From: a virus
Taxonomy: Duplodnaviria > Caudoviricetes
Reading direction: 5' to 3' (one strand)
IMG/VR virus record: IMGVR_UViG_3300032770_000022
Span: 1,142 to 65,141 of that record
DNA: 64,000 bases
Made by a program: the position numbers and the translations under genes. Shown piece after piece: positions 10,894 to 39,945 of the stretch. Each line of letters begins with the position of its first letter. The first letter of the stretch is position 1. The notes under the pieces are model-generated. The model saw only the letters and a program-made list of their open reading frames with translations, made no database searches and was not told the origin of the DNA.

Positions 10894-12675
10894 TCATCCT
10901 CTCCTGTAGACGCTCAGGCGCGCGTGCTTCTGGTCGAACGCGACCTTCGCCTTGGCGAACAACTCCGGCTTCTCGACCTTCAACCGCTGCATCGTCTTCA
11001 TCGCGCCCTTCACGGCTGTATCAAATATCGCCGCGCCCTGGGCGTTGAGCGGGATCGCTTCAAGGTCCCGCAACTGCGTCTCGACCCATGCCTCGTCGTC
11101 ATCGGCCTGCGACTCCTGCTTCGCGGCCTTCGCTTTGGGCTTGAGCGCGATGAGCCAGTCAGGAGCAAACAATCCGTTCTTGCGCAGGAATTGCTCTATC
11201 GCCTCCAGCAGCAACGGACGCTGACCCGCTGGCATGCCTTCGATCGTCTGACGCTGCGCTTCCCACCACGCGTCGGTAATCATGGCCGTAGCCATAACGC
11301 GCATGAACTCATGACGGTATGCGGGCCAGTCCAATTTGTCGCCTTTCATCGGCACAGACACAGCGAGAATTATAGGGTCGTCTGCTGGCATCTTCTCGCC
11401 ATCGCCGTCGTCGCCGGGCAGCGGCGGTTCCTCGTCCAGCACGGCGAGAATACGCGCGGCCTCCGGAAACGCTCGCGCCGCGCCGATCGCATCCTCGTTG
11501 TTCTCTGTGATCGTCGCCATCCAGTCGGTATTGTCATTCACCCCGTTCCACAACGCGACCAGATCGCGCGCAAACGCCACCGGATTGCGGTACGGCTCAT
11601 TCATGACATCGCCATACTGATCGATCAGCACCGCCTCGAATTCGGGCGTGGACTCTGGTGGCGGCGGTTCCGGCTGACGCTGCGCCGTAGGCGGTTCCTC
11701 GCGCCGCCTGTCCGTGTGCGCCGCACCGGGATCGCGCCCCTGCCGGACCGGCTCGCGCGGATCGGGCTGCTCGTCCTCCGGCACGTCTGGTATGCCGTCC
11801 ATCGGCGTCGCGGTGCCGTCGATCACCGTGCCGAAATCAAGCCGGTGTCCGCCTTCCTGCGCGTCCTCGATGCCGATGCCGGCGCGAAGCTCCGGGCACT
11901 TCGGCAGCAGCTTCGCGAGACGGCGCAGCACCGTCTTGCGTCCCATCTCCGGCGCATCGCGCACCCACGCGGCTTCGAGCCATGTGTTCGGGAGGCGTTC
12001 GCTTTTGTCCTCCGCGCGTTCCTTCGCCGCGAGCGCGGTGCGGTAGCTCTGGCTGCGGTTGCGGATGCCGAGGATTTCGGTCCACGACATGATCTCGAAT
12101 TCCTCGCCCTCGTTGAGGAACTGCGCGATCGCGTAGCAGCCGCGCGGCGTCAGGCTGCTCGTGTCGAGGTCGATGTTCGGCTTGTGGCGGATGAACCGCT
12201 CCGATCCCTTCTCGTAGTCGAATACCTCGCCGGGGAACACGACGCCGGTCGCGATGTCCTTGATGAACCCGGAACGGAAGGCGAGCTCGACGTAGCCTGG
12301 ATAGCCGATGATCAGGTTCAGGTCGTACCCCGCATCGACCCACTCACCCTTGACCTTCTTGCGGCGGGCGAACGGTATCAGATGGCTTTGCTGCAACACG
12401 GTGCCGGGCACCAGCCCGAGATAGGTCAGCGACATGAACGCGCCGAGGGACTGGCGCAGGTCGCACTTGTAGATCAGCGGCGTCTTGCTCGCCGCCTGGA
12501 TGAACGCGCGCAGCATCGTCTCCGCGTTCAGGTGCTTCGGGATCGCGGCGTTCATAATATCTTTCAGTTCCTTCGTGTCGAACGCCTCGGCCAGACTGGT
12601 GCAGTCCTTCAGCTTCTTGAACCCGGCCTTCGTCGGCATCGTCGCCACGTTGTCGGCCTTTGCTGTCTCGCTCAT
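10894..12675 (-). CDS. recT: RecT-family single-strand annealing recombinase with long C-terminal extension
   Basis: 'AIPKHL..E.MLR', 'LGLVP', 'HLIPF', 'IIGYPGYVELAFRSG', 'EMGRKTVLRRLAKLLP'. Confidence 0.85.
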   Translation of the reverse strand: MSETAKADNVATMPTKAGFKKLKDCTSLAEAFDTKELKDIMNAAIPKHLNAETMLRAFIQAASKTPLIYKCDLRQSLGAFMSLTYLGLVPGTVLQQSHLIPFARRKKVKGEWVDAGYDLNLIIGYPGYVELAFRSGFIKDIATGVVFPGEVFDYEKGSERFIRHKPNIDLDTSSLTPRGCYAIAQFLNEGEEFEIMSWTEILGIRNRSQSYRTALAAKERAEDKSERLPNTWLEAAWVRDAPEMGRKTVLRRLAKLLPKCPELRAGIGIEDAQEGGHRLDFGTVIDGTATPMDGIPDVPEDEQPDPREPVRQGRDPGAAHTDRRREEPPTAQRQPEPPPPESTPEFEAVLIDQYGDVMNEPYRNPVAFARDLVALWNGVNDNTDWMATITENNEDAIGAARAFPEAARILAVLDEEPPLPGDDGDGEKMPADDPIILAVSVPMKGDKLDWPAYRHEFMRVMATAMITDAWWEAQRQTIEGMPAGQRPLLLEAIEQFLRKNGLFAPDWLIALKPKAKAAKQESQADDDEAWVETQLRDLEAIPLNAQGAAIFDTAVKGAMKTMQRLKVEKPELFAKAKVAFDQKHARLSVYRRG

Positions 12676-30271: not shown

Positions 30272-31752
30272 TGTCCGACAGCTTCAACTCCCCTCCGTCA
30301 TCGACGCTGAACGCGGGCGGCTCGCAGCTCGGCACGGAGTTGATGTCGCTGCTGATCGCCAACGACATCCAGCCCGGTGACTCGCCGTCCTACCAGATAT
30401 GCAAGACGATCTATCTCTATCACCCGCTCGGCGCGAAGATGGTCGAGGCGCCGCTGAACATCGCGCAGTCCCAGGCGCGCGAGATCGACGTGCCGGGCCA
30501 TCCCGAGCGCGTGGCGCGCGCCTTCCTCGACGAATGGAAGCGCCTGCACACGGACGTGCTGATCTTTAACACCGCGAGGACCGCGCGCATCTACGGCATC
30601 TCGTCGGTGGTCGTGGGCGCGGTGGACAAGCCCACGAACGCGCCGCTGACGCCCAAGGAGCTCGCCGGCGAGCAGCTTTTCTTCAACGTGCTGGACCCGC
30701 TGAACACGGCGGGCAGCCTGGTGCTGAACCAGAACCCGAACTCGCCCGACTTCCAGGCGGCGACGACCGTGGTGACCGGCGGGCAGACGTACCACCGCTC
30801 CCGCGTCTGCATCATCATGAACGAACAGCCGATCTACATCGCCTACACAAGCTCGTCCTTCGGCTTCGTCGGCCGCTCGGTCTACCAGCGCGCGCTGTTC
30901 CCGCTCAAGTCCTTCATCAACACGATGATCGCGGACGACATGATCGCGCGGAAGCTCGGGCTGCTGATCGCCAAGATGGAGGCGCCGTCGTCCGTCATCG
31001 ACAAGATGATGACCGGCCTGCTCGGCATGAAGCGCGCGCTGCTCCAGCAGGCGCAGACGGACAACGTGCTGGGCATCGGCAAAGAGGAAGACATCGCCAC
31101 GCTGAACATGATGAACGTGGACGGCGCGGGCACATATTCGCGTAACGATATTCTGAAAAATTGCGCAACCGCAGCGGATATGCCGGCGGTGCTGTTGGAG
31201 AATGAGACGTTAGTGCAAGGCTTCGGCGAGGGGAGGGAAGACGCAAAACGCATTGCTGAATATGCCGACCGCGTGCGCGAATGGATGCAGCCGCTATACG
31301 ACTTCTTCGACGGCATCGTGCAGCAGCGTGCATGGAACCGAGACTTCTTCGCCTCGATGCAGCAGGATGATCCCGAGACTTATGGCAATATGCGTTATGA
31401 GGCGGCGCTGTCCAAGTGGCGCGCAGCGTTCACCGCGACTTGGCCATCGTTACTGCGAGAACCTGAATCGGAACGAGTCAAAGTTGATGATACTAGGCTC
31501 AGGGCAACCATCGCACTGATGCAAGTCATGGTGCCGATGCTCGATCCGACCAATAAGGCGACGTTCTTCTCGTTCGTCGAGGATGCGATCAACTCCGCTG
31601 AAATGTTGTTCCCTGGTAAGTTGACGTTGGATGTCGAGGCTCTGGCTGATTTTACCCCGCCGACACCAGGCATGAATGGCGAAAGCGGGGATCAGGGAGG
31701 TGGCTTGGCTCAGCCAAAACCACCAGCATTCAGAATGAAGGCTGCCGCCTGA
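30271..31752 (+). CDS. Portal protein (DUF1073-like)
   Basis: Position after TerL; 'ARIYG', 'YHRSR', 'GRSVY', 'AADMP..LL'. Confidence 0.85.
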   Translation: MSDSFNSPPSSTLNAGGSQLGTELMSLLIANDIQPGDSPSYQICKTIYLYHPLGAKMVEAPLNIAQSQAREIDVPGHPERVARAFLDEWKRLHTDVLIFNTARTARIYGISSVVVGAVDKPTNAPLTPKELAGEQLFFNVLDPLNTAGSLVLNQNPNSPDFQAATTVVTGGQTYHRSRVCIIMNEQPIYIAYTSSSFGFVGRSVYQRALFPLKSFINTMIADDMIARKLGLLIAKMEAPSSVIDKMMTGLLGMKRALLQQAQTDNVLGIGKEEDIATLNMMNVDGAGTYSRNDILKNCATAADMPAVLLENETLVQGFGEGREDAKRIAEYADRVREWMQPLYDFFDGIVQQRAWNRDFFASMQQDDPETYGNMRYEAALSKWRAAFTATWPSLLREPESERVKVDDTRLRATIALMQVMVPMLDPTNKATFFSFVEDAINSAEMLFPGKLTLDVEALADFTPPTPGMNGESGDQGGGLAQPKPPAFRMKAAA

Positions 31753-31753
31753 T

Positions 31754-31782
31754 TTGCTTTGGTGCGTTGGTCTGCATACAAT
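31754..31782 (+). promoter_or_regulatory. Sigma70-type promoter of guide array A
   Basis: TTGCTT (31754-59), 17-nt spacer, TACAAT (31777-82). Confidence 0.7.
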
Positions 31783-31789
31783 CGGCCTC

Positions 31790-31929
31790 GGCTCGGCAAG
31801 GCATGGATTGCCAAGGCAACGCTGGGTGCGGCACGACGCGTCGCGGCAGGCATGGCACGACCCGGCGCGGCTCGGTATGTCAAGGCTCGGTATGGCGTGG
31901 TGAAAGAGGCGGCTTCGGTCGCCTCTTTC
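31790..31929 (+). ncRNA. GGY-NN pentamer guide array A (two units separated by GGCA) with 3' hairpin
   Basis: 11 + 10 in-register pentamers (ggc-tc ggc-aa ggc-at gga-tt ...), then GAAAGAGGCGGC-TTCG-GTCGCCTCTTTC. Confidence 0.8.
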
Positions 31930-31940
31930 TTTGCCCGCAT

Positions 31941-32095
31941 TTGACAAACGGAACAGGGACGGCTTAGGGTCGCATCGCGTTGCCATCACAGCGCAAGCGC
32001 GATGCTGATCCAGGACTTCCAATGGCCCCGGTGATGCTTCGCATCCCCTGTGTTCGCGCCGGGCGTGATGGGCCGGGCGCCATTGGAGGGCTAAC
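31941..32095 (+). promoter_or_regulatory. Promoter and structured 5' leader of the RAMP-like gene
   Basis: TTGACAAACGGAACAGG; CTTCCAATGGC (32016-26) pairs with GCCATTGGAGG (32079-89), covering the RBS. Confidence 0.55.
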
Positions 32096-32812
32096 ATGCC
32101 ACTAGACCAAGCAACTGCCGGGCGGCGTTCCCGCACGGAGAAGATCACCATCCCGTCGCTGTCTGCGGCGGAAATCGAAGCAGCCAAGGCAGCCGGACAG
32201 CCAGAGATCATCCGGATCGAAAAGCCGAAGCTGCGCACGGCCTCCATCCCGATCGTTGGTATCTCGCCATACGTGCAGCATGCGTTCAGCGAGAAGCAGC
32301 GGAAGAAGATGGAGGAGACGCAGCGGGCCGGACAGCAGGCGCGCGGCAAGAAGAACCGCCAGCCCAAGGACTTCGAGGAGGTCTACGAGGCCGCGAAGCA
32401 CATCAGCAAGGACGGCTGGTGCGGCATTCCGGCTCCCGCATTCCGCAACGCGATGATCGACGCGTGCCGGCTCGTGGGCTTCAAGATGACGCACGCCAAG
32501 CTGTCGGTATTCGTCGAGGCTGACGGGTTCGATCGCAACGACGGGACACCGCTAGTCAAGATCGTCGGCGAGCCGCACATCCACGAGGCGGCGGTGCGCA
32601 ACGACAGCGGCGTGGCGGACATCCGCTGGCGGCCGATGTGGGACGAGTGGTCCGCGCTCGTGCGTGTCACCTGGGACGAGGACCAGTTCTCGGCAACGGA
32701 CGTAATGAATCTGATGCTCCGCGCCGGCTTGCAGGTGGGCATCGGGGAGGGACGGCCCAACAGCCCGAAGTCGAACGGGCTGGGCTGGGGCCGGTTCGAG
32801 GTGAAGTCATGA
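32096..32812 (+). CDS. Stand-alone RAMP/Cas7-like RNA-binding protein, candidate guide effector
   Basis: 'IPIVGISPY' (beta1), 'GIPAPAFRNAM' (RAMP IPxSxLKG-type motif) and C-terminal Gly-rich loop 'GIGEGRP...GLGWGRFEV'. Confidence 0.75.
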   Translation: MPLDQATAGRRSRTEKITIPSLSAAEIEAAKAAGQPEIIRIEKPKLRTASIPIVGISPYVQHAFSEKQRKKMEETQRAGQQARGKKNRQPKDFEEVYEAAKHISKDGWCGIPAPAFRNAMIDACRLVGFKMTHAKLSVFVEADGFDRNDGTPLVKIVGEPHIHEAAVRNDSGVADIRWRPMWDEWSALVRVTWDEDQFSATDVMNLMLRAGLQVGIGEGRPNSPKSNGLGWGRFEVKS

Positions 32813-33249
32813 GCGCGCGCATCCAAGCTGAATTGCTCACTCTGCGCGACAGCAACGGCATCATCGACGCCCGCCGTGCCGTCGATTGGGCGAAGCAGCA
32901 CCAGGACAGCGCCTTGTATCAGGCGCTCGAATGGGACGATGCGACGGCGGCGATCGAATACCGCATCAGTCAGGTGCGGCGCTTGATCGCGGTGCATATC
33001 GTGGACGCAGAAGGCCATCGGCAGGTCGTGTCGCTGTCGGTCGATCGCCAACAGGGCGGCGGCTATCGCAGCGTCCAGGACGTGCTGTCGGTCGATGACC
33101 TGCGTGCGGTGATGCTGTCCGACGCGCTCGAAGAATTGCAGCGAGTTCAGCGGAAATATGAGTATCTACAAGAACTGGCGAAAGTCTGGGAAGCCGCTCA
33201 GCAGGTCGAGCAGGAGACGCGACCGAGGCGCCGCCGCCGCGCGGCGTGA
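32809..33249 (+). CDS. Helical partner protein of the RAMP-like gene
   Basis: ATGA-coupled; 'LEWDDATAAIEYRISQVRRLI' motif; 146 aa. Confidence 0.7.
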   Translation: MSARIQAELLTLRDSNGIIDARRAVDWAKQHQDSALYQALEWDDATAAIEYRISQVRRLIAVHIVDAEGHRQVVSLSVDRQQGGGYRSVQDVLSVDDLRAVMLSDALEELQRVQRKYEYLQELAKVWEAAQQVEQETRPRRRRRAA

Positions 33250-33258
33250 TCACGATCA

Positions 33259-33590
33259 GGCAGGGCAGGCGGAGCATGGACCGTTCCGTCCTGGCATGGC
33301 GTGGCACGCTAGGGCTCAGCAGGCGGAGCATGGAGGGCAGGGTCGGGCGCGTCGCGTTAAGGCTGTGCTTGGCGCGGTTCGGGATGGCTCGGCAGGCTCG
33401 GCAAGGTTCGGCGCGATCAGGCCTGTCCAGGTCAGACTCGGCATTGCGGGGTAGGGCAGGCATGGCCCGGCAGGCGGAGCTTCGCTTGGCGCGGTCAGGC
33501 ATAGACCGGACCGGATCGGCAGGCTCGGTTAGGCGCGGCGCGAAGCGGCATGTCGCTGCTCGGCTGGTCCTGGAACGGCAGGCATGGAGG
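33259..33590 (+). ncRNA. GGY-NN pentamer guide array B (about five long units plus short ones, delimited by GGCA/AGCA)
   Basis: About 60 in-register pentamers; 4-nt delimiters at 33264, 33318, 33391, 33455, 33469, 33518, 33577. Confidence 0.8.
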
Positions 33591-33596
33591 TAGCCG

Positions 33597-34421
33597 GTGG
33601 CAACTTCTTTCTTCCAAGTTGTCACCGACGCCATCAATGACGTTGCCGAATTCGGATACGAATCAGAGGAACGGCTAGCGTATTGGCTAACGGAGATACG
33701 CCAGGCAGCCGAGCGCGATCTGATCTCCGAGGGCGGGCTACAGGCGCAACTCGATCGCGTGCTGGTCGCGACGTACCAGCGGCTGGTGGATCGCGGTCGC
33801 GTGTTGCAGCGCCATTCCGGGATCGCGAGATATACGCTCGAACAACTGCGGCCGCAGCTCCGTGCTGAACTGGATCGCAGAATCGCGGCATCCGCGAACC
33901 TGATCCGGCTCAATCGCGCGACGGCGATCAACGAAACGTTGCAACGGTTCTCTGGATGGGCGTCGTCCGTTCCCGCCGGCGGGACCGACATTACGAACCG
34001 ACGAGAGGTCAAAGCTAACGTCCGCAAGTCACTGGCAGGACTGCCGTTTGAGACCCGGCGTGTACTCGTGGACCAATCACATAAACTCTCGGCTGCGATC
34101 TCCGACATCGTTGCGATGGACCAAGATGCGATCGGCGCCGAGTGGCACTCGCACTGGCGCCAGCAAAACTATCAATATCGACCGGAACACAAAGCCAGAG
34201 ACGGGATCGTGTATCCGGTCAAGGACAGTTGGGCCGCGCAGCGCAGGTTCGTCAAAGCGGACGAGCATGGATTTTACGAAGATCACGAACGCGCAGGCGA
34301 AATGATTTTCTGCCGCTGCTGGATTCGCTGGATTTACGCGCTCAGGGATATGCCGAAGGAACTGCTGACGGACGCGGGGCGCAGGGCACTCGCGGACGCG
34401 CGGGCGAAGGTGATGGCCTGA
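33597..34421 (+). CDS. Head morphogenesis / minor head protein (Mu F, SPP1 gp7-like)
   Basis: 'WHSH...YRPEH..RDG', 'FCRC'; position after portal; GTG start with GGAGG. Confidence 0.8.
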   Translation: MATSFFQVVTDAINDVAEFGYESEERLAYWLTEIRQAAERDLISEGGLQAQLDRVLVATYQRLVDRGRVLQRHSGIARYTLEQLRPQLRAELDRRIAASANLIRLNRATAINETLQRFSGWASSVPAGGTDITNRREVKANVRKSLAGLPFETRRVLVDQSHKLSAAISDIVAMDQDAIGAEWHSHWRQQNYQYRPEHKARDGIVYPVKDSWAAQRRFVKADEHGFYEDHERAGEMIFCRCWIRWIYALRDMPKELLTDAGRRALADARAKVMA

Positions 34422-34568
34422 TCCGAGATGCGCGCGACGGTCGCGCTCATGCCTGGCCGGGAGGCGGTTCCCGGTGTCGTTAGTGGACGTTTCCTCCCAA
34501 CCTTGAGCGGCGCGCGTCTCTCTGACCCCTTCCTTGGTGCGCCGCTTTCTTTTCCCCCCGGAGACGCG

Positions 34569-36518
34569 ATGCCCGGCTTCGAGCTGATGTCGGGCGTGGG
34601 GGAGGACGACGCTGCGGCGGCCGAGCGCATCATCGACGCGCGGCTGGCAGAGCTAGGAGCGAGGTATCCGCGCCTGATCGCGCTGCTGGGCGGCACGCAC
34701 ATACGGCTCGCGCCTGGGGCGTTGCTTGAGGATAGCTGGCACGGCCAGAGCGACCCGGGCCGCATCACGCTGCCGGTGGAGCTGAAACAGGACCGATCGC
34801 CCGCGTCGCCCGGCGGCAGGCGCGTCGAGTTCGAACCGTCCCTGCTCGGTGTGCTGGACCACGAGATCGGCCATGAGATCGAGGCCGGGTTCGCTAAGGC
34901 AGCGGGCCTGGATATCGGCGAGTTGTTCGCGCGCCAGGACAGGGCGGCGATCGAGACCGGTCTCTCGCCCTACGCGGCGCAGGACGAGCACGAGTGGTTC
35001 GCGGAAAGTCTCGCCGCATGGCTGCATCCCGAGCGCCCGGCGGTGCACTTCGACCTGGACCCCGATCTCGCGCAGGCGTTCCAGCGCATCCTGACGACGC
35101 GCGGCGCGCACGACGCATCGTGGTGGACGTATCAAGCATCATCGCCGACTCCATCGTGGGAAGAAGCAATCGCCGCCGGAGCGTTCAAAGGCAGCAAGTC
35201 TGAATGGGAAAGCCTGTCTCCCGGCATGCGCCGCGAGATATTGCGGACCTGGAAACGGAAAGCCGACAGCGCCGGCCTGATCACGGTGGACGACGGCGAG
35301 ATCACGCCTCACGTCGAGAAGCACGAGGCGGACTACACGAACACGGGCGACGTGGAGCATTGCCGGCTGTGCGAGTTCTGGCGGCCGCCCGATGCGTGCG
35401 CGCTGGTGATCGGCACGATCAGCCCGGTCGGCTGGTGCAAGTTTTTCCAATGGCCCGACGGGCGGGCCGACACCGCAGGCGAGGCAGGCGACGATCCGGC
35501 GCAGCCGCTGGTCCGTGGCGCGGGCATGCTGCTGATCCATCACGGCGACGGCGGCGACCGCGTGCTGTTTGTGCTCAACAGGGAGCGCGGCACCTGGGAA
35601 TTTCCCGGCGGCGCCATCGAGGGCGACGAGACCGCCGAGGAAGCGGCCAAGCGGGAGACGCTGGAGGAAGTCGGCGAGATACCCTACGGCAGCGTGTCGC
35701 TGATGCTGCGCGACCGCATGACCGGCGTGGACTACTCGACGTTCATGGCGCAGGCGACGGGCACGCCCGAGCCGACGCTGAGCGACGAGCACACGGCCTG
35801 GAAGTGGGCCGCGCCGGGAGAACCGCCCGAGCCGCTGCATCCCGGCGTGCGCCTCGCCCTGGCCCGCCTGGGCATGAACGAACTAGACCTCGCGCGGGCG
35901 ATCGCGTCGGGCGAGTACTCGAGTCCGCAGCAGTTCGAGAACATCTGGCTCTATGCGCTGCGCATCACCGGCACCGGGATCAGCTACCGGCCCGAGTTGA
36001 GTGAATTCGTCTGGCGCGATCCAAAGCTCTATCTCAATGCGGACTTCCTCGCACGCTGCAACGGCCTGGCCGTCATCTGGCAGCATCCGCCGGGGGAAAG
36101 CCTGACGCAGGACGAGTACGAGAACCGCGTGCTGGGCGCGATCATGCTGCCCTACGTCGCTGGCGACGAGGTGTGGGGCATCGCGAAGATTTACGACCAG
36201 GACGCGGCGCTGATGATGCTCAACCAGCAGCTATCGACCTCGCCAGCTGTCGTGTTCCGTGATCCTGGCGCGAATAAAATCCGCAAATTAACTGGCGGCA
36301 AGCATTTACTAATCGAGGCGGAGCCGTCACTCTTGGACCATCTCGCGATCTGTGGCTTGGGCGTATGGGACAAGGGCGGCAGCCCGACCGGCGTCGCTGT
36401 GGGCGAAGCAGAGATGGCAGATGGCCATATCGAGGTTCCAGATCGAGCGGACGCAATTGCCGAACTGAACCGTGCAATTGCTTGGATGGACCTCACAAGG
36501 GTCACGTCCGCGCTCTGA
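34569..36518 (+). CDS. Multidomain prohead protease-like protein: zincin HExxH + HiPIP-like Cys cluster + NUDIX + DUF2213
   Basis: 'HEIGH..YA...EWFAE'; 'CRLC..C..ISPVGWC'; Nudix box 'GGAIEGDETAEEAAKRETLEEVG'; 'RITGTG..YR..RDP..HP..LSTSP..DHLAIC..GVWD'. Confidence 0.8.
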   Translation: MPGFELMSGVGEDDAAAAERIIDARLAELGARYPRLIALLGGTHIRLAPGALLEDSWHGQSDPGRITLPVELKQDRSPASPGGRRVEFEPSLLGVLDHEIGHEIEAGFAKAAGLDIGELFARQDRAAIETGLSPYAAQDEHEWFAESLAAWLHPERPAVHFDLDPDLAQAFQRILTTRGAHDASWWTYQASSPTPSWEEAIAAGAFKGSKSEWESLSPGMRREILRTWKRKADSAGLITVDDGEITPHVEKHEADYTNTGDVEHCRLCEFWRPPDACALVIGTISPVGWCKFFQWPDGRADTAGEAGDDPAQPLVRGAGMLLIHHGDGGDRVLFVLNRERGTWEFPGGAIEGDETAEEAAKRETLEEVGEIPYGSVSLMLRDRMTGVDYSTFMAQATGTPEPTLSDEHTAWKWAAPGEPPEPLHPGVRLALARLGMNELDLARAIASGEYSSPQQFENIWLYALRITGTGISYRPELSEFVWRDPKLYLNADFLARCNGLAVIWQHPPGESLTQDEYENRVLGAIMLPYVAGDEVWGIAKIYDQDAALMMLNQQLSTSPAVVFRDPGANKIRKLTGGKHLLIEAEPSLLDHLAICGLGVWDKGGSPTGVAVGEAEMADGHIEVPDRADAIAELNRAIAWMDLTRVTSAL

Positions 36519-36521
36519 AAA

Positions 36522-36607
36522 GGAAAAGGCGGCCGAAGCCGCCCTTTCCACCATGCCATGCCGGGCCTCGCTCGTCCCAGCCACGCCTATCCTCGCCTTG
36601 ACGCACT
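36522..36607 (-). ncRNA. GGY-NN pentamer guide array C (one unit) with 3' hairpin
   Basis: Minus strand: gtc-aa ggc-ga gga-ta ggc-gt ggc-tg gga-cg agc-ga ggc-cc ggc-at ggc-at ggt, then GGAAAGGGCGGC-TTCG-GCCGCCTTTTCC. Confidence 0.8.
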
Positions 36608-36608
36608 G

Positions 36609-36637
36609 ATATTACCCGACCGCATAGCGGACGGCAA
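36609..36637 (-). promoter_or_regulatory. Sigma70-type promoter of guide array C
   Basis: TTGCCG, 17-nt spacer, TAATAT on the minus strand. Confidence 0.7.
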
Positions 36638-36736
36638 ACCCAACCCGATCAGGGATCGCCCCGGCCTGATCGGCTCTTTCTCGTGGGCAACACGATGCGC
36701 ACCGCCGATATGGCGTCGCAGCAGGAGACAACTGAA

Positions 36737-37876
36737 ATGGCTGACAATTCGTCTTCGCTTGAGGCGAAGCTCGATGTGCTTGTCGCCGCGACGACGAAGA
36801 TCGGCGAGGCGGTGACCGCTCAGAACGCACGAATGGACTCGATCGAACAGCGGATCGGCGCCCGCAAGGACGACGATGACAAGCGCGATGATGACCGGAA
36901 GCGGGACGACGACGACGACCGCAAGGATCGCCGTCGCGATGACGATGACCGTCGCCGGGATGATGCGCGCCGCCGCGCCGATGCCTTCAAGTTCAGCCCA
37001 CGCAAGGACGACGATGACGACGACGCGTTCAAGAAGCGTCGCGATGCGGAACAGGGCGAGCTTGAGAAGGAGTTGAAGGAAGGCGGCGAGGACGAGGGCA
37101 AGGCGAAGGAGACCGCTGCCGACCGCCGCAAGAAGGCGGACGACGACGACGACAAAGCGCGCAAGGATGCGATGGACAAGAAGCGCGACGATGCGCGCAA
37201 GCGGGCGGACGCGTTCAAGTTCTCGCCCAGGCACGACGACGACGACGACGACAAGGCGAAGTCGCGCAGGGACGCCGAGGAGGAAGAACTCGCGAAGGCG
37301 CACGAGGAAGGCGGCGACGACAAGGACGACGCCCGCCGCAAGGCCAAAGATGCGCGCAAGAAGGCCGACGACGACGACGACAAGAAGCGGGACGACGCGC
37401 GCCGCGACAGCACGTTCGACCGCCGGCTGCGCGATCTGGAGCGCGCCCGCAGCATGTCCGACGAGGAAGTCAACAAGCTCGCGGAGATGCAGCAGTCGTG
37501 GGCCGAGGTCGCTCAGGCGCACGGCCTGACGGTGCACCGCACGGTCGACGGCGACACGCCGGAGAGCTTCAACCGCAGGCAGGCCAAGCGCTTCCAGAAG
37601 TTCTCCAAGAAGTGGAAGGACGAGGACCTCGGCGGGCTGCCGACCACGACGATGACCAACATCGCCGGGCCGGAAATCCGCACGGATTCGATCAAAGCCG
37701 CTTACCAGGGCGTCGGTGCCGAACCTGGAGTTTTACGGGAGATCAAGCGCTACGATCGAGTGGGCCGGCCGATAAGCGAGTTCAGCGGCCCGATCAGCGC
37801 GATGCTGGACCAGTTCAGCCTGCCGAACATGAAGGTCGTCGGCGGCATCAACCCGCAGCGCGCCGCCGGCTTCTGA
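36737..37876 (+). CDS. Capsid scaffold-like protein, D/K/R-rich with internal duplication
   Basis: Between protease and capsid genes; duplicated 'RADAFKFSPR..DDDDD..RRDAE' block. Confidence 0.7.
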   Translation: MADNSSSLEAKLDVLVAATTKIGEAVTAQNARMDSIEQRIGARKDDDDKRDDDRKRDDDDDRKDRRRDDDDRRRDDARRRADAFKFSPRKDDDDDDAFKKRRDAEQGELEKELKEGGEDEGKAKETAADRRKKADDDDDKARKDAMDKKRDDARKRADAFKFSPRHDDDDDDKAKSRRDAEEEELAKAHEEGGDDKDDARRKAKDARKKADDDDDKKRDDARRDSTFDRRLRDLERARSMSDEEVNKLAEMQQSWAEVAQAHGLTVHRTVDGDTPESFNRRQAKRFQKFSKKWKDEDLGGLPTTTMTNIAGPEIRTDSIKAAYQGVGAEPGVLREIKRYDRVGRPISEFSGPISAMLDQFSLPNMKVVGGINPQRAAGF

Positions 37877-37895
37877 GCATAGAAAGGGAAATCCA

Positions 37896-38777
37896 ATGGC
37901 TTCGAACATCTCCTTCAACCCTGTGCTCACCACGGTCGCGGCGGGCACGTTCACCGTCCAGACGGACGGATTCATGCAGGGCGTCTTCCTCGACGATCCC
38001 GCGATCAGGAACGAGCTGGTCCAGGGCATCTTGGCAACGACCGAGACGCTGCCGATGTGGGGCGGCATCGCGATCTATGAGAATATCCCCGGCGTCTCCG
38101 GCGGCCCGGCGGACAATCTCGGCTCGGTCATCGGCCGCGCCACGAGCAATGCGGCTATCGCTGGCTTCTCGACCTTCAACCAGGCGTCGAACTTCATCAC
38201 GACGCCGCAGAGCGAGGCGCCATCCGCTGGCCAGAGCATGTCGGTGCCGTACTTCCGGCTCGGCTCCGGCGCGCGCATCGCCGTGCAGTGCGATCCGGGC
38301 CTCGCCGCGCTTGAGGGCGCGACGACCAGCCCGCAGGTGTCCTGGGATATCAACAACCAGGTCTTGCAGGAGTACGTCGCCTCCGGCGCGACCGAGGCGG
38401 TTACGTCGATGACCTGGAGCGCCACCAACGGCGGGCAGATTGCCGTGGTGATGACTGGCGCATCGGTCTTCGGGCTGGGCGATCAGGTCTACGTGTCGGG
38501 CGCGACGAACACTGGCACCGGTGGCGCGTCTGCCGTCAACGGCAGGTTCGTGATCAACACCTGGACGGACACGACGCACTTCACGCTGCTCGCTCCCGCC
38601 GCCTCGGGCGTGATCGGCACGATCGGCGGCACGATCGTCCTGAACGTCGGCATCGGCGCTTTGGCTGTCAAAGTGCTGAGCCTACACCTCGGGAACAGCC
38701 GCACGATCCTGTACGATCCGGTGCAGAATTTCGTCCACTGGCAGAACGGCGGGAACGTCGCGATCATCCAACTCTGA
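37896..38777 (+). CDS. Capsid cement/decoration protein
   Basis: 'G..QG..LDDPAIR..L..G......PMWGGI.I.E', 'RLGSGARI.V'; precedes the MCP. Confidence 0.65.
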   Translation: MASNISFNPVLTTVAAGTFTVQTDGFMQGVFLDDPAIRNELVQGILATTETLPMWGGIAIYENIPGVSGGPADNLGSVIGRATSNAAIAGFSTFNQASNFITTPQSEAPSAGQSMSVPYFRLGSGARIAVQCDPGLAALEGATTSPQVSWDINNQVLQEYVASGATEAVTSMTWSATNGGQIAVVMTGASVFGLGDQVYVSGATNTGTGGASAVNGRFVINTWTDTTHFTLLAPAASGVIGTIGGTIVLNVGIGALAVKVLSLHLGNSRTILYDPVQNFVHWQNGGNVAIIQL

Positions 38778-38780
38778 AAC

Positions 38781-38898
38781 AAAACGGCTGGCTCCGAAGA
38801 ACCAGCCGTTTTTCCACTCCATGTCTCGCCCCGCCTCGGCTGGCCGTTTCCAGACGTGCCCAGCCCCGCCTCGCCTCCATGCCAACCCGGCTCGCGCC
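38781..38898 (-). ncRNA. GGY-NN pentamer guide array D with 3' hairpin
   Basis: Minus strand: 12 in-register pentamers (38875 to 38816) plus about 4 upstream, then AAAAACGGCTGGTTC-TTCG-GAGCCAGCCGTTTT. Confidence 0.8.
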
Positions 38899-38931
38899 AG
38901 GCGCGCTAGCCTTTAGCACAAGGATACCGAA

Positions 38932-39945
38932 ATGGCCACAATCAGCCCGAGCTGGACGCAGGTGCATCCGAGTTTCATCGAGCCGGACATCCTGCTTCAG
39001 TACAACCAGGCGTCCGGTTTCCGCTATCTCCTCGCCGGTTCGGAGCCTCGTACGAAAATCGGCAGCGAGGACCTCTACGTTTACATTAAGCGGATGGATA
39101 TACGCACGCGCGTCTCGTCCGCGCAGGCGGCGGGCAACCAGCTTCCGTCTGTCTCGGTGTCGATGAACATGATATCGACGCCGACCTATCTCGATCGGGT
39201 GCGCGCGGAGTACGACCACCACGACACGGCTGCGACCGCCGAGTGGGGCGCGTCCATCGTCGAGGTGCAGCGTCTTGGCATGCGGCAGGGATGCAACCAG
39301 CTCCTCCGCAACAAGACGCTGTATGGCCTCAATCCTGGCGAGGGGATCGTCAATACGCCCAGCGCGACCACCGTCTCGCTGCCGGCGGATACCAACGGCA
39401 ACACGACGTTCTCGACCTACGACAACGGGCAACTTGCGCTGTTCCTGTTGACGCAGATCACCGCGCTCAAGTCGCGCACGATGCAGTTCGGCATGCCCAA
39501 CCGGTTCCAGTTCCTCGGGCCGCAGCGCATCTTGGGCGGCATGGCGACGCAGAACATCGTGCAGCTTGTCCAGTACCAGCGGCCCGGCGCGGGCACCGAC
39601 ACGACGCGCGGGCTTGTCACGAAGGTCGAGGAGGAACAGGGCGACGAAATCCTGTGGACCTACGACGATACGCTGATCGGGAGGGGATCGGGCGGCACGG
39701 ACCTGATCATCCTGGCCATGCCAGAGGTGAGAAAGCCCACGGCATCGCCATTCAACACCAACGAGTTCGCCAATCTCGCGCCCGGGCTGGACGCGTGCCT
39801 GCTCCAGTACATCGACATGCCTGCGCCTCGGGAGATTCCAACGCCGCTGCCGGGCGGGGCGATTGATGTGGTGTCTGAATGGCGTTCGACATGCGGCTGG
39901 GCACCGAGGCCAGAAGCGGTTACACTGATCAGCATGGGCTTCTGA
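38932..39945 (+). CDS. Major capsid protein
   Basis: 337 aa, position after the cement gene, followed by a hairpin. Confidence 0.75.
   Translation: MATISPSWTQVHPSFIEPDILLQYNQASGFRYLLAGSEPRTKIGSEDLYVYIKRMDIRTRVSSAQAAGNQLPSVSVSMNMISTPTYLDRVRAEYDHHDTAATAEWGASIVEVQRLGMRQGCNQLLRNKTLYGLNPGEGIVNTPSATTVSLPADTNGNTTFSTYDNGQLALFLLTQITALKSRTMQFGMPNRFQFLGPQRILGGMATQNIVQLVQYQRPGAGTDTTRGLVTKVEEEQGDEILWTYDDTLIGRGSGGTDLIILAMPEVRKPTASPFNTNEFANLAPGLDACLLQYIDMPAPREIPTPLPGGAIDVVSEWRSTCGWAPRPEAVTLISMGF

What the first reader, a model, noticed from the sequence alone, without database searches (positions are those of the whole stretch)
38816..38972. Guide D decodes to the N-terminus of the adjacent major capsid gene; the phage's own copy escapes via three Ser TCN>AGY switches
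On the + strand the 12 variable dinucleotides of array D (38816-38875) read AC AT TC CC TC TG GT CA GT CA CC TC. Taken as codon positions 1-2 with the third base skipped, they can be read T-I-S-P-S-W-V-Q-V-H-P-S. The MCP about 60 bp away (38938-38973) reads T-I-S-P-S-W-T-Q-V-H-P-S, with dinucleotides AC AT AG CC AG TG AC CA GT CA CC AG. That is 8/12 identical dinucleotides and 11/12 compatible residues. Three of the four mismatches are serines encoded AGC/AGC/AGT instead of TCN, the rare kind of synonymous change that defeats a wobble-skipping guide. Hand estimate with uniform bases: about 1e-7 per position for at least 8/12, before counting adjacency or the Ser pattern. Inference: the code is NN-skip-NN, the real target is the MCP gene of related phages, and this allele is self-immune.
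Basis: partly seen in the sequence, partly recalled or inferred. Interest (0 to 1): 0.96.

Follow-up and report, generated by a model that had tools for sequence, protein, structure and literature searches.

The report
Phage VIPR guide aimed at capsid gene
This is a small guide RNA gene of a recently described phage weapon (VIPR) that reads two of every three bases of a target gene; here it appears to be aimed at the capsid gene of sibling phages, while the phage's own capsid gene is spelled with different serine codons.

Summary
38816-38875 is 12 pentamers (NN+GCC on +, GGY-NN on -), and its 12 dinucleotides match MCP codons 3-14 (38938-38973) at 8/12, the best match in the window.

It is not a new code. 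It is a solo vrRNA of a VIPR system, described in three 2026 bioRxiv preprints: a Vipr RAMP protein plus GGY/NN repeat RNAs that bind dsDNA and skip every third (wobble) base.

- **Vipr gene:** the window carries it at 32096-32812. Its fold matches Cas7/Csm3.
- **Arrays go with the gene:** 53 of 71 homologous loci have GGY-NN arrays, against 0 of 80 MCP-relative loci.
- **Targets:** guide D matches related phages better than itself. L001 scores 11/12, three others 10/12, self 8/12. None of 1000 permutations reached 10. L001's complete genome has no Vipr and no arrays.
- **Serine codons:** the three own AGY serines are unusual. Relatives use TCN in 102 of 113 serine codons at these sites.

Self-immunity is consistent with this but untested. 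No perfect target was found. Expression, promoter and binding are not shown.

The parts
38816..38875 (-). vrRNA D guide tract. Twelve pentamers read on the minus strand as GGC-GA GGC-GG GGC-TG GGC-AC GTC-TG GAA-AC GGC-CA GCC-GA GGC-GG GGC-GA GAC-AT GGA-GT. Seven units are exact GGY and five are degenerate.
38777..38815 (-). 3' tail of vrRNA D: GG, an A-run, a hairpin with a UUCG loop, then a U-tract. On the + strand the same hairpin followed by TTTTT sits just after the stop codon of gene 37896-38777, so it looks like a bidirectional terminator.
   Evidence: Fold (14-pair stem in the centroid). Alignment with the tails of A2 and C. The simple terminator scan did not call it.
38876..38931 (-). 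5' flank of vrRNA D, between the MCP start codon and the guide. It contains GGCATGGA directly before unit 1. The promoter and true 5' end were not identified.
   Evidence: promoter scan found 0 sites
38938..38973 (+). Own MCP codons 3-14 (T I S P S W T Q V H P S). Partial match to guide D: 8/12 NN, with skipped bases at wobble positions. Mismatches are at Ser5 AGC, Ser7 AGC, Thr9 ACG and Ser14 AGT.
38932..39945 (+). Major capsid protein gene (337 aa).
   Evidence: phrog_6671 E 1.5e-135 and phrog_264 major head protein; PF09950 weak, below cut-off
32096..32812 (+). vipr: 238-aa RAMP (Cas7/Csm3-like) protein, P0001, with a glycine-rich conserved C-terminal loop.
   Evidence: phrog_4652; model pLDDT 78.7; Foldseek and VIA-align top hits are all CRISPR RAMPs; invariant G211 G215 G217 E218 G219 R220 P221
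32809..33249 (+). Candidate vap (accessory) gene, 146 aa, P0002. Its start overlaps the vipr stop by 4 nt.
   Evidence: phrog_15946; no Pfam family; Atlas neighbours are unnamed viral clusters
31790..31935 (+). vrRNAs A1 (12 units, 31790-31849) and A2 (11 units, 31849-31903), followed by a tail hairpin and T-tract. They lie upstream of vipr on the same strand.
33259..33596 (+). Array B: several GGY-NN tracts downstream of the vap candidate.
36519..36597 (-). Solo vrRNA C (10 units, 36548-36597) plus a tail hairpin (36519-36547) just after the stop of gene 34428-36518.
31144..31179 (+). Own portal codons (N D I L K N C A T A A D) matched 8/12 by guide A1 in codon register. One mismatch is Leu CTG against TT.
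36002..36031 (+). Own site in the 696-aa head-module gene (E F V W R D P K L Y) matched 6/10 by guide C. The homologous site in L001 matches 8/10.

Best explanation
38777-38875 (minus strand) is a solo vrRNA gene of a VIPR system. The Vipr RAMP protein encoded at 32096-32812 is expected to polymerise on the twelve GGY-NN repeats. It would bury each GGY and present each NN. The resulting filament would bind double-stranded DNA whose target strand reads NNx twelve times, with x at the wobble position.

The site specified is the first codons (3-14) of the major capsid gene of closely related phages that spell the three serines TCN. Binding there would block capsid-gene transcription of a co-infecting or resident sibling phage.

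The phage's own capsid gene, 63 nt from the guide, keeps the same peptide. It differs at 4 of 12 dinucleotides (three Ser AGY, one Thr for Val), which puts it below the match level taken as targeting.

Shown here: anatomy, RAMP fold, association of protein and arrays, the match statistics, and the codon pattern. Taken from the preprints: filament formation, dsDNA binding, and repression. Inferred: that 8/12 spares self, and that the serine switches were selected for this.
For: Anatomy:
- D, A2 and C share GGY-NN units, a common 3' end and a hairpin plus U-tract.

Protein:
- P0001, modelled with a 40-sequence alignment, has pLDDT 78.7.
- Foldseek gave 42 hits at E <= 0.001, and every listed hit is a CRISPR RAMP chain or complex.
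- In VIA-align, ranks 1-28 are all CRISPR RAMPs, best Z 10.7.

Association:
- 53 of 71 loci encoding P0001 homologues carry GGY period-5 arrays, mostly just downstream on the same strand. 0 of 80 MCP-relative loci do.

Literature:
- The VIPR preprints describe exactly this: Vipr + vap + 9-16 YNNGG repeats + tail, 1-nt skip at wobble, either strand, no PAM, inter-phage targets, solo vrRNAs.

Target:
- At MCP codons 3-14 of 79 relatives, NN matches are 11 (1 locus), 10 (3), 9 (12), 8 (21) and lower (42).
- The whole-dataset maximum for shuffled guides never reached 10 in 1000 trials.
- G001 (100% complete, terminal repeats) has no Vipr and no array.

Self versus non-self:
- Own best match is 8/12.
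- Own Ser5/7/14 are all AGY. AGY is 123 of 423 Ser codons in 17 long ORFs, and 3 of the other 19 Ser codons of the MCP.
- Relatives at these sites use TCN 102 times and AGY 11 times.

Parallel cases:
- Guide C: 8/10 in L001 against 6/10 own (0 of 300 shuffles reach 8).
- Guide A1: 9/12 in three relatives against 8/12 own.
- Both are wobble-aligned and both lie beside the own homologue.
Against: - No perfect target was found. The best is 11/12. The exact 10-unit pattern found only one low-GC viral contig, off register with the only overlapping long ORF that I checked (which lies on the opposite strand), and a repeated Fibrobacter-type sequence, neither at an MCP start.
- Guide position 9 (GT, Val) fits distant relatives but not the close clade (AC, Thr).
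- Two of the 12 positions coincide with units conserved among this phage's vrRNAs.
- No promoter for D was recognised.
- Ser family switching is common at this divergence. Among the five closest MCPs, 6 of 9 all-Ser columns are mixed, including 3 of the 6 outside the target. The serine signal is therefore modest. My hand calculation gives p = 0.013 within the gene, and about 0.05 using only conserved Ser columns.
- Twenty-one relatives also score 8/12, so 8/12 is not specially low.
- P0001 did not hit the published SUSP1 phage by tblastn.
- The tail here is a plain hairpin, not the pseudoknot described for the SUSP1 clade.
Confidence: 0.85

Rival explanations
1. Autoregulation. Guide D acts on the phage's own capsid gene through the partial 8/12 match, for example to hold late genes down. 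Its position next to the gene reflects cis-regulatory logic rather than warfare.
For: The guide is 63 nt from the own site, and the site covers the first codons, where a roadblock works best. The own 8/12 is the best match in the window. Guides A1 and C also lie next to the own homologue.
Against: Relatives match better than self for D (11/12), C (8/10 against 6/10) and A1 (9/12 against 8/12). The preprints found no self hits at >=80% NN, and lower self than non-self scores. Within its close clade the own allele is the worst match: 8 against 9-11.
Confidence: 0.06
2. Decoy or hijack guide. D is made to load a competitor's Vipr, or to titrate it, rather than to arm the phage's own Vipr. This would resemble the satellite solo vrRNAs described in the third preprint.
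For: Solo vrRNAs that redirect another element's Vipr are reported (abstract and section 8 of 10.64898/2026.10.15.759431). D is a stand-alone unit outside the vipr-vap cassette.
Against: This phage has its own vipr. D's tail is the same type as that of A2 next to vipr. D's best matches are an essential gene of relatives, not a multi-copy decoy. The best-matched relative has no Vipr to hijack.
Confidence: 0.04
3. Plus-strand cis element. The NN-GCC tract is part of the capsid mRNA leader and binds a ring-shaped or multimeric RNA-binding protein. My first idea was a TRAP-like site of triplets with 2-nt spacers. On this reading, the codon match is incidental.
For: The tract lies between a terminator and the MCP start on the coding strand. 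No minus-strand promoter was found.
Against: The same repeat type occurs with the opposite orientation next to vipr and in 53 of 71 homologous loci, always reading GGY-NN on the gene's strand. The tail hairpin follows the tract only on the minus strand. 11/12 to L001 is far beyond the permutations.
Confidence: 0.03
4. Chance. D is a real vrRNA, but its resemblance to the capsid N-terminus is coincidence and its true target is elsewhere.
For: 8/12 somewhere in the window arises in 29 of 1500 shuffles. Two matched positions may be constant. The relatives' N-termini are homologous, so their matches are not independent of the own one.
Against: The four own mismatches are each filled by the allele common in relatives: TC at three serines (102 of 113) and GT = Val at position 9. 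No shuffle reached 10 in 1000. The match is in codon register at the adjacent gene.
Confidence: 0.02

Closest known systems
VIPR systems (Vipr + vap + vrRNA), characterised in Escherichia phage SUSP1 and a Pseudomonas fulva prophage; bioRxiv 10.64898/2026.04.26.720920 and 10.64898/2026.04.26.720927
   Same: - A small RAMP protein with an adjacent small gene.
- Flanking non-coding tracts of GGY/NN pentamers (12 units here; twelve protomers in the cryo-EM class), followed by a conserved 3' tail.
- NN pairs with target NN and the third base is skipped, aligned to wobble.
- Targets occur on either strand.
- Targets lie in competing phages and not in self at >=80% NN.
   Different: - No detectable sequence match to SUSP1 in the phage collection.
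- The tail is a plain UUCG hairpin with a U-tract, used as a bidirectional terminator, rather than a pseudoknot.
- Guides C and D sit on the opposite strand inside the head-gene module.
- Predicted targets are head genes (portal, 696-aa protein, MCP) of sibling phages, rather than a satellite recombinase or prophage regulators.
- I could not assign the VIPR type (I-VII). Figures and supplements were not visible.
Solo (orphan) vrRNAs of satellites and VIPR-null phages; bioRxiv 10.64898/2026.10.15.759431 (abstract, section 8 and passages read)
   Same: Stand-alone vrRNA genes away from vipr. Self-match is lower than non-self match, which avoids autoimmunity. Guides are wobble-aligned.
   Different: Here the carrier phage keeps vipr and vap. 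The solo guides lie beside the carrier's own, differently spelled copy of the target gene. Self-avoidance is largely by synonymous switches between the two serine codon families. I did not find that described in the passages searched ('serine' 0 and 1 occurrences, 'six-fold' 0).
Class 1 CRISPR-Cas backbone (Cas7/Csm3/Cmr4 on crRNA)
   Same: P0001 has the same fold. A protein filament on a guide RNA periodically interrupts base pairing.
   Different: There is no repeat-spacer array and no other cas gene among the 10 neighbouring proteins scanned. Pairing is 2 of 5 guide bases to 2 of 3 target bases, instead of 5 of 6. The guide is hard-wired, with no adaptation module seen.
Marker exclusion by free-standing homing endonucleases of T-even phages (recalled from general knowledge, no call)
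   Same: A weapon gene sits next to the carrier's own resistant allele of the sequence that it attacks in sibling phages. Linkage lets weapon and resistance travel together.
   Different: The published VIPR action is repression by binding, not cleavage. No recombination outcome has been shown here. This is an analogy only.

Membership tests
VIPR system | Vipr: a small RAMP protein (RRM core, glycine-rich loop, thumb) | tested here: met
   Model pLDDT 78.7, pTM 0.70. Foldseek gave 42 hits at E <= 0.001, and all listed hits are Csm3/Cmr/Cas7 chains or complexes. VIA-align best Z 10.7, ranks 1-28 are CRISPR RAMPs. There is an invariant G-rich stretch at 211-232. The thumb was not examined separately.
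VIPR system | vrRNA: 9-16 YNNGG (GGY/NN) tandem repeats followed by a conserved 3' tail | tested here: met
   D has 12 units, 7 of them exact GGY. The preprint notes frequent internal degeneracy. D's tail aligns with those of A2 and C and folds as a hairpin.
VIPR system | Arrays flank the vipr gene; protein and arrays co-occur | tested here: met
   Arrays A and B flank vipr-vap. 53 of 71 homologous loci have arrays, against 0 of 80 MCP-relative loci.
VIPR system | Adjacent vap accessory gene (vap1-6) | tested here: inconclusive
   A 146-aa gene overlaps the vipr stop and is phrog_15946. It has no Pfam family. Its Atlas neighbours are unnamed. It could not be compared with the published vap families.
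VIPR system | 1-nt skip rule: a foreign target with >=80% NN match, with skipped bases at codon wobble positions | tested here: met
   L001 11/12 (92%). L002, L003 and L079 10/12 (83%). All are in codon register at MCP codons 3-14. 0 of 1000 shuffles reach 10.
VIPR system | No self-target at >=80% NN | tested here: met
   The best match of D in the whole window, both strands, is 8/12 = 67%.
VIPR system | vrRNA is expressed and co-purifies with Vipr; the RNP binds dsDNA and represses transcription | not testable with these tools
   This needs RNA sequencing, pull-down and reporter assays.
VIPR system | Sequence relatedness to a published Vipr (SUSP1, P. fulva) | tested here: inconclusive
   tblastn of P0001 against 50,697 phage records hit 33 records: 27 Mycobacterium, 5 Gordonia and 1 cyanophage. 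None is named SUSP1. The preprint states that RAMPs share little sequence similarity.
VIPR system, SUSP1 clade | Pseudoknotted 3' tail | tested here: inconclusive
   The fold shows a simple 14-pair hairpin. The folding tool does not predict pseudoknots. This feature is clade-specific and not defining for VIPR.
CRISPR-Cas (class 1) | Repeat-spacer array and a set of cas genes | tested here: not met
   Tandem Repeats Finder lists no array with a period above 15 in the window. None of the 10 neighbouring proteins has a Cas Pfam family. Only the Cas7-like fold is shared.
TRAP-type RNA site (recalled: about 11 G/UAG triplets with 2-3 nt spacers bound by a ring protein) | Triplet repeats in an mRNA leader on the coding strand, with a TRAP-family protein | tested here: not met
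   The constant triplet is GGY on the strand opposite to the MCP mRNA. The associated protein has a RAMP fold.

The most novel reading that the evidence does not exclude
The solo guides and the phage's own recoded alleles form linked poison-antidote pairs. Each guide (A1, C, D) sits within about 60-650 nt of the carrier's own copy of the gene it attacks in siblings. As a result, recombination in mixed infections rarely separates the weapon from the resistance, and it can carry both into the sibling genome (an allele-drive-like spread). Switching between the two codon families of six-fold degenerate amino acids (Ser TCN/AGY in the MCP, Leu CTN/TTR in the portal) would be the selected synonymous escape route from a guide that ignores wobble positions. 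That is a loophole in the 'no synonymous escape' logic stated in the preprints.
Probability: 0.3. Interest if true: 0.7.

Novelty: new member of a known kind. Interest (0 to 1): 0.5.

Why it matters
VIPR was described only in 2026, and its natural targets known so far are a satellite, prophage regulators and other VIPR loci.

This phage, an uncultured high-GC phage seen in wetland metagenome runs, adds a case in which the guides appear to be aimed at essential head genes of sibling phages. Each guide is placed next to the carrier's own mismatched allele.

It also shows, in natural sequence, how a gene can keep its protein and still drop out of a wobble-skipping guide's reach: through serine (and possibly leucine) codon-family switches. 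That matters for judging how escape-proof VIPR targeting is, both in phage ecology and in any engineered use.

Tried and rejected
- **TRAP-like or other plus-strand protein-binding leader.** This was my first idea. I dropped it once the arrays proved to go with a RAMP gene and to read GGY-NN on that gene's strand.
- **Rfam.** No family at gathering score in the window. Only weak sub-threshold rows in 31500-39100.
- **Exact 7-unit index search.** 1039 guide windows gave no clear enrichment: 38 hits real, 30 reversed order, 19 fully reversed.
- **12-unit windows.** Too few (149) and they missed D: >=9/12 was 5 against 2.
- **Single-sequence fold of P0001.** Useless, pLDDT 35.7. Repeated with an alignment.
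- **Exact 10-unit NNx pattern.**
  - Viral contigs: 1 hit, in a low-GC contig, off register with the only overlapping long ORF that I checked (on the opposite strand).
  - Genome contigs: 2 hits.
  - Metagenome contigs: 7 hits.
  - Eight of these last nine are one repeated Fibrobacter-type sequence, and none is at an MCP start. By my estimate these numbers are near chance for databases of this size.
- **Promoter/terminator scan of 38650-39150.** 0 and 0.
- **RNA evidence.** No RNA holder listed.
- **Contigs of four wetland runs laid on 37800-39600.** Only short, mostly <90% pieces, and no cover of the array or MCP start. Nothing can be concluded.
- **Guide A2.** Best 7/11, no better than shuffles. 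The array B windows that met my run-calling threshold gave no real-order hit of 8/10 or better in the data held. B was not fully parsed.
- **P0001-bearing loci L081-L151 and L153.** None has an MCP of this family within the flanks held, so no second guide-beside-allele case could be examined.
- **CGC-NN arrays of L153.** No targets above controls: 3 against 4 and 2 at 8/10.
- **Atlas search for the vap candidate.** Only unnamed viral clusters.
- **Supplements and figures of the three preprints.** Not visible. VIPR type definitions, tail logos and target tables (data S3, figs S16-S22) may bear on the type assignment. They may also show whether capsid targets, guide-allele linkage or serine switches are already reported.
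Full report
**Observation.**
The stretch 38816-38875 consists of twelve pentamers. On the + strand each is a variable dinucleotide followed by GCC or a near variant.

The MCP ORF starts at 38932 (phrog_6671 E 1.5e-135). Codons 3-14 (38938-38973) share 8 of 12 first-two-base pairs with the array, in order and without gaps. Three of the four differences are Ser AGC/AGC/AGT against TC.

A scan of all positions of both strands at period 3 shows this is the best match in the window. The runners-up are two 7/12 and six 6/12. Shuffling the order of the twelve dinucleotides gives an 8/12 somewhere in the window in 29 of 1500 trials. The count alone is therefore only about p = 0.02. Adjacency, codon register and the serine pattern add to it.

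**What the array is.**
Period-5 tracts of the same kind lie at four places:
- 31790-31903, arrays A1 and A2, on +.
- 33259-33596, array B, on +.
- 36548-36597, array C, reads GGY-NN on -.
- 38816-38875, array D, reads GGY-NN on -.

A2, C and D end alike. They share two units with NN = AT and GT/AT, then GG, an A-run, a hairpin with a UUCG-type loop and a U-tract. For C and D the hairpin sits directly after the stop codon of the preceding + strand gene and is followed by T's on that strand too. It therefore looks like a two-way terminator.

A and B flank two overlapping genes, 32096-32812 (P0001, phrog_4652) and 32809-33249 (P0002, phrog_15946), inserted between the portal and head-morphogenesis genes. 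No Rfam family matches.

**The protein.**
P0001 has 71 relatives in IMG/VR. Of these 71 loci, 53 carry GGY period-5 arrays (at least 7 of 12 units), mostly just downstream on the gene's strand. Some reach 12/12 over 100-400 nt. None of the 80 loci fetched with the MCP does.

Folded with 39 of the 70 available homologues, P0001 gives pLDDT 78.7. Foldseek returns 42 PDB matches at E <= 0.001, and all listed are Csm3, Cmr, type VII Cas7 or Cas7-11. A Foldseek-independent search puts CRISPR RAMPs at ranks 1-28, best Z 10.7 with rmsd 3.5 over 147 residues. The C-terminal stretch is glycine-rich and invariant.

**Identification.**
A full-text search led to bioRxiv 10.64898/2026.04.26.720920. I read its abstract, Results, Discussion and three Methods sections. 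It describes VIPR systems as follows:
- a small RAMP (Vipr), an accessory gene (vap), and vrRNAs of 9-16 YNNGG repeats with a conserved 3' tail;
- the NN pairs with dsDNA, skipping one base;
- the skipped base mostly falls at codon wobble positions;
- targets occur on either strand, with no PAM;
- the system represses competing phages.

Natural targets are called there at >=80% NN match, and no self hit reached that level.

A companion paper reports a filament of twelve protomers on a twelve-repeat vrRNA, with guide N4-N5 paired to target N1-N2 (abstract and one section read). A third reports solo vrRNAs and lower self than non-self match scores (abstract, section 8 and passages).

The window's locus fits this description feature by feature (see Membership tests).

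**Target of guide D.**
Read as the strand that pairs with the minus-strand RNA, guide D specifies AC AT TC CC TC TG GT CA GT CA CC TC. That is T I S P S W V Q V H P S with wobble ignored.

At the MCP start of 79 of 80 relatives (one dropped), the NN match is 11 in 1 locus (L001), 10 in 3 (L002, L003, L079), 9 in 12, 8 in 21 and lower in 42. L001 has the same peptide as the window but TCC, TCC and TCG at the three serines. Val (GT) at the ninth position is the common residue in more distant relatives.

Against all 4.04 Mb held (window plus 151 loci, both strands), shuffled versions of the guide reached at most 9, in 6 of 1000 trials, and never 10.

More generally, 411 distinct 10-unit windows from all arrays gave 71 hits of >=8/10 in real order, against 21 (reversed) and 35 (shuffled). 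They gave 5 hits of 9/10 against 0 and 0.

The record holding L001 is complete (terminal repeats) and has neither a P0001 relative nor a GGY array. The same holds for four other matched records, apart from one weak protein hit in G003.

The exact 10-unit pattern occurs in the three collections only at sites that are not MCP starts.

**Self against non-self.**
Own MCP scores 8/12 (67%). That is the lowest in its 75%-identity clade, where the others score 9-11.
- The three own serines in the site are all AGY.
- AGY makes up 123 of 423 serine codons in 17 long ORFs of this phage, and 3 of the other 19 serines of the MCP.
- By hand, the chance that the three site serines are all among the six AGY of 22 is 0.013.
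- In relatives, serine codons at these three sites are TCN 102 times and AGY 11 times. In the rest of the gene, AGY is 382 of 1148 (63 loci).
- TCN therefore looks ancestral and AGY derived. This is an inference from majority, not from a tree.

Against over-reading this: among the five closest MCPs, 6 of 9 all-serine columns mix both families, including 3 of the 6 outside the site. Family switching is common at this distance. I also do not know how many mismatches a 12-unit guide tolerates. Two matched positions (Thr, Ile) coincide with units that are conserved among this phage's vrRNAs. On the other ten, own is 6/10 and L001 is 9/10.

**The other guides.**
Guide C matches the homologue of the 696-aa head-module gene in L001 at 8/10 (motif E Y V W R E P G I Y, inside the tblastn match). 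Its own copy at 36002-36031 matches 6/10. None of 300 shuffles reached 8.

Guide A1 matches a conserved portal motif at 9/12 in three relatives and 8/12 in the own portal at 31144, in codon register. One own mismatch is Leu CTG against TT. Here 5 of 300 shuffles reached 9, so this one is weaker.

D pairs with the coding strand, and A1 and C with the template strand. This fits DNA targeting rather than mRNA targeting.

All three guides lie 63 to about 650 nt from the carrier's own copy of the matched site. That linkage, and the reading of it as a poison-antidote arrangement, is inference.

**Not shown.**
- Transcription of D.
- D's promoter: none was found.
- Its loading on P0001.
- DNA binding.
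- The effect of the serine switches.

No RNA run holds the region, and the laid contigs did not cover it.

**Verdict.**
The mechanism it points to was published in 2026. The locus is therefore a new member of a known kind. It brings three details I did not find in the text I could read: head genes of sibling phages as targets, guides placed beside the carrier's own mismatched alleles, and serine codon-family switching as the way the own gene stays out of reach.

Noticed in passing
L153 400-2500 (minus strand), in the record that holds L003: Directly after the portal gene, the same position as vipr in the window, lies a 195-aa ORF with a weak match to P0001 (E 4e-5, 33% over 58 residues). It is flanked by four period-5 arrays whose constant triplet is CGC, not GGY (52, 44, 19 and 11 units). 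This may be a VIPR variant with another repeat consensus. With NN taken at unit positions 4-5 and the 1-nt skip rule, no targets stood out above controls.
   Followed up: partly
window 36519-36547 and 38777-38815: The tail hairpins of solo vrRNAs C and D sit right after the stop codons of the + strand genes 34428-36518 and 37896-38777, with T-runs on both strands. One hairpin seems to end transcripts in both directions.
   Followed up: partly
window 31844-31852, 33270-33600, 38876-38883: The motif GGCATGG, often after a 4-nt GGCA unit that shifts the pentamer phase by one, recurs at the borders between guide units in arrays A and B and just 5' of guide D. It may mark vrRNA starts or processing sites.
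   Followed up: no
L085 about 11402-11451 and L088 7246-7275: A 10-unit guide window in the array of one P0001-bearing phage matches the vap-like gene of another at 9/10 in codon register (peptide R Q L I A I H V V D; the window's P0002 has R R L I A V H I V D). This looks like a VIPR aimed at another VIPR locus, as the preprints report for other clades.
   Followed up: no
phage records hit: P0001 relatives (30-58% identity, E down to 5e-64) are annotated only as hypothetical proteins in 27 Mycobacterium phage records, 5 Gordonia phage records and Cyanophage Cy-LDV1. I did not check whether GGY-NN arrays flank them.
   Followed up: no
window 34428-36518: The 696-aa head-module protein carries a NUDIX domain (PF00293, E 1e-14, residues 363-475) and matches phrog_6216. 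The next gene, 36683-37876, matches the C-terminal part of the same phrog. That is an unusual domain for a head gene cluster.
   Followed up: no
L154, L156-L162: A conserved sequence of about 75 nt, found in a Fibrobacter MAG and seven metagenome contigs, contains an exact 10/10 NNx match to guide D. It is not at an MCP start. It is probably chance given the database size, but the sequence itself was not identified.
   Followed up: no
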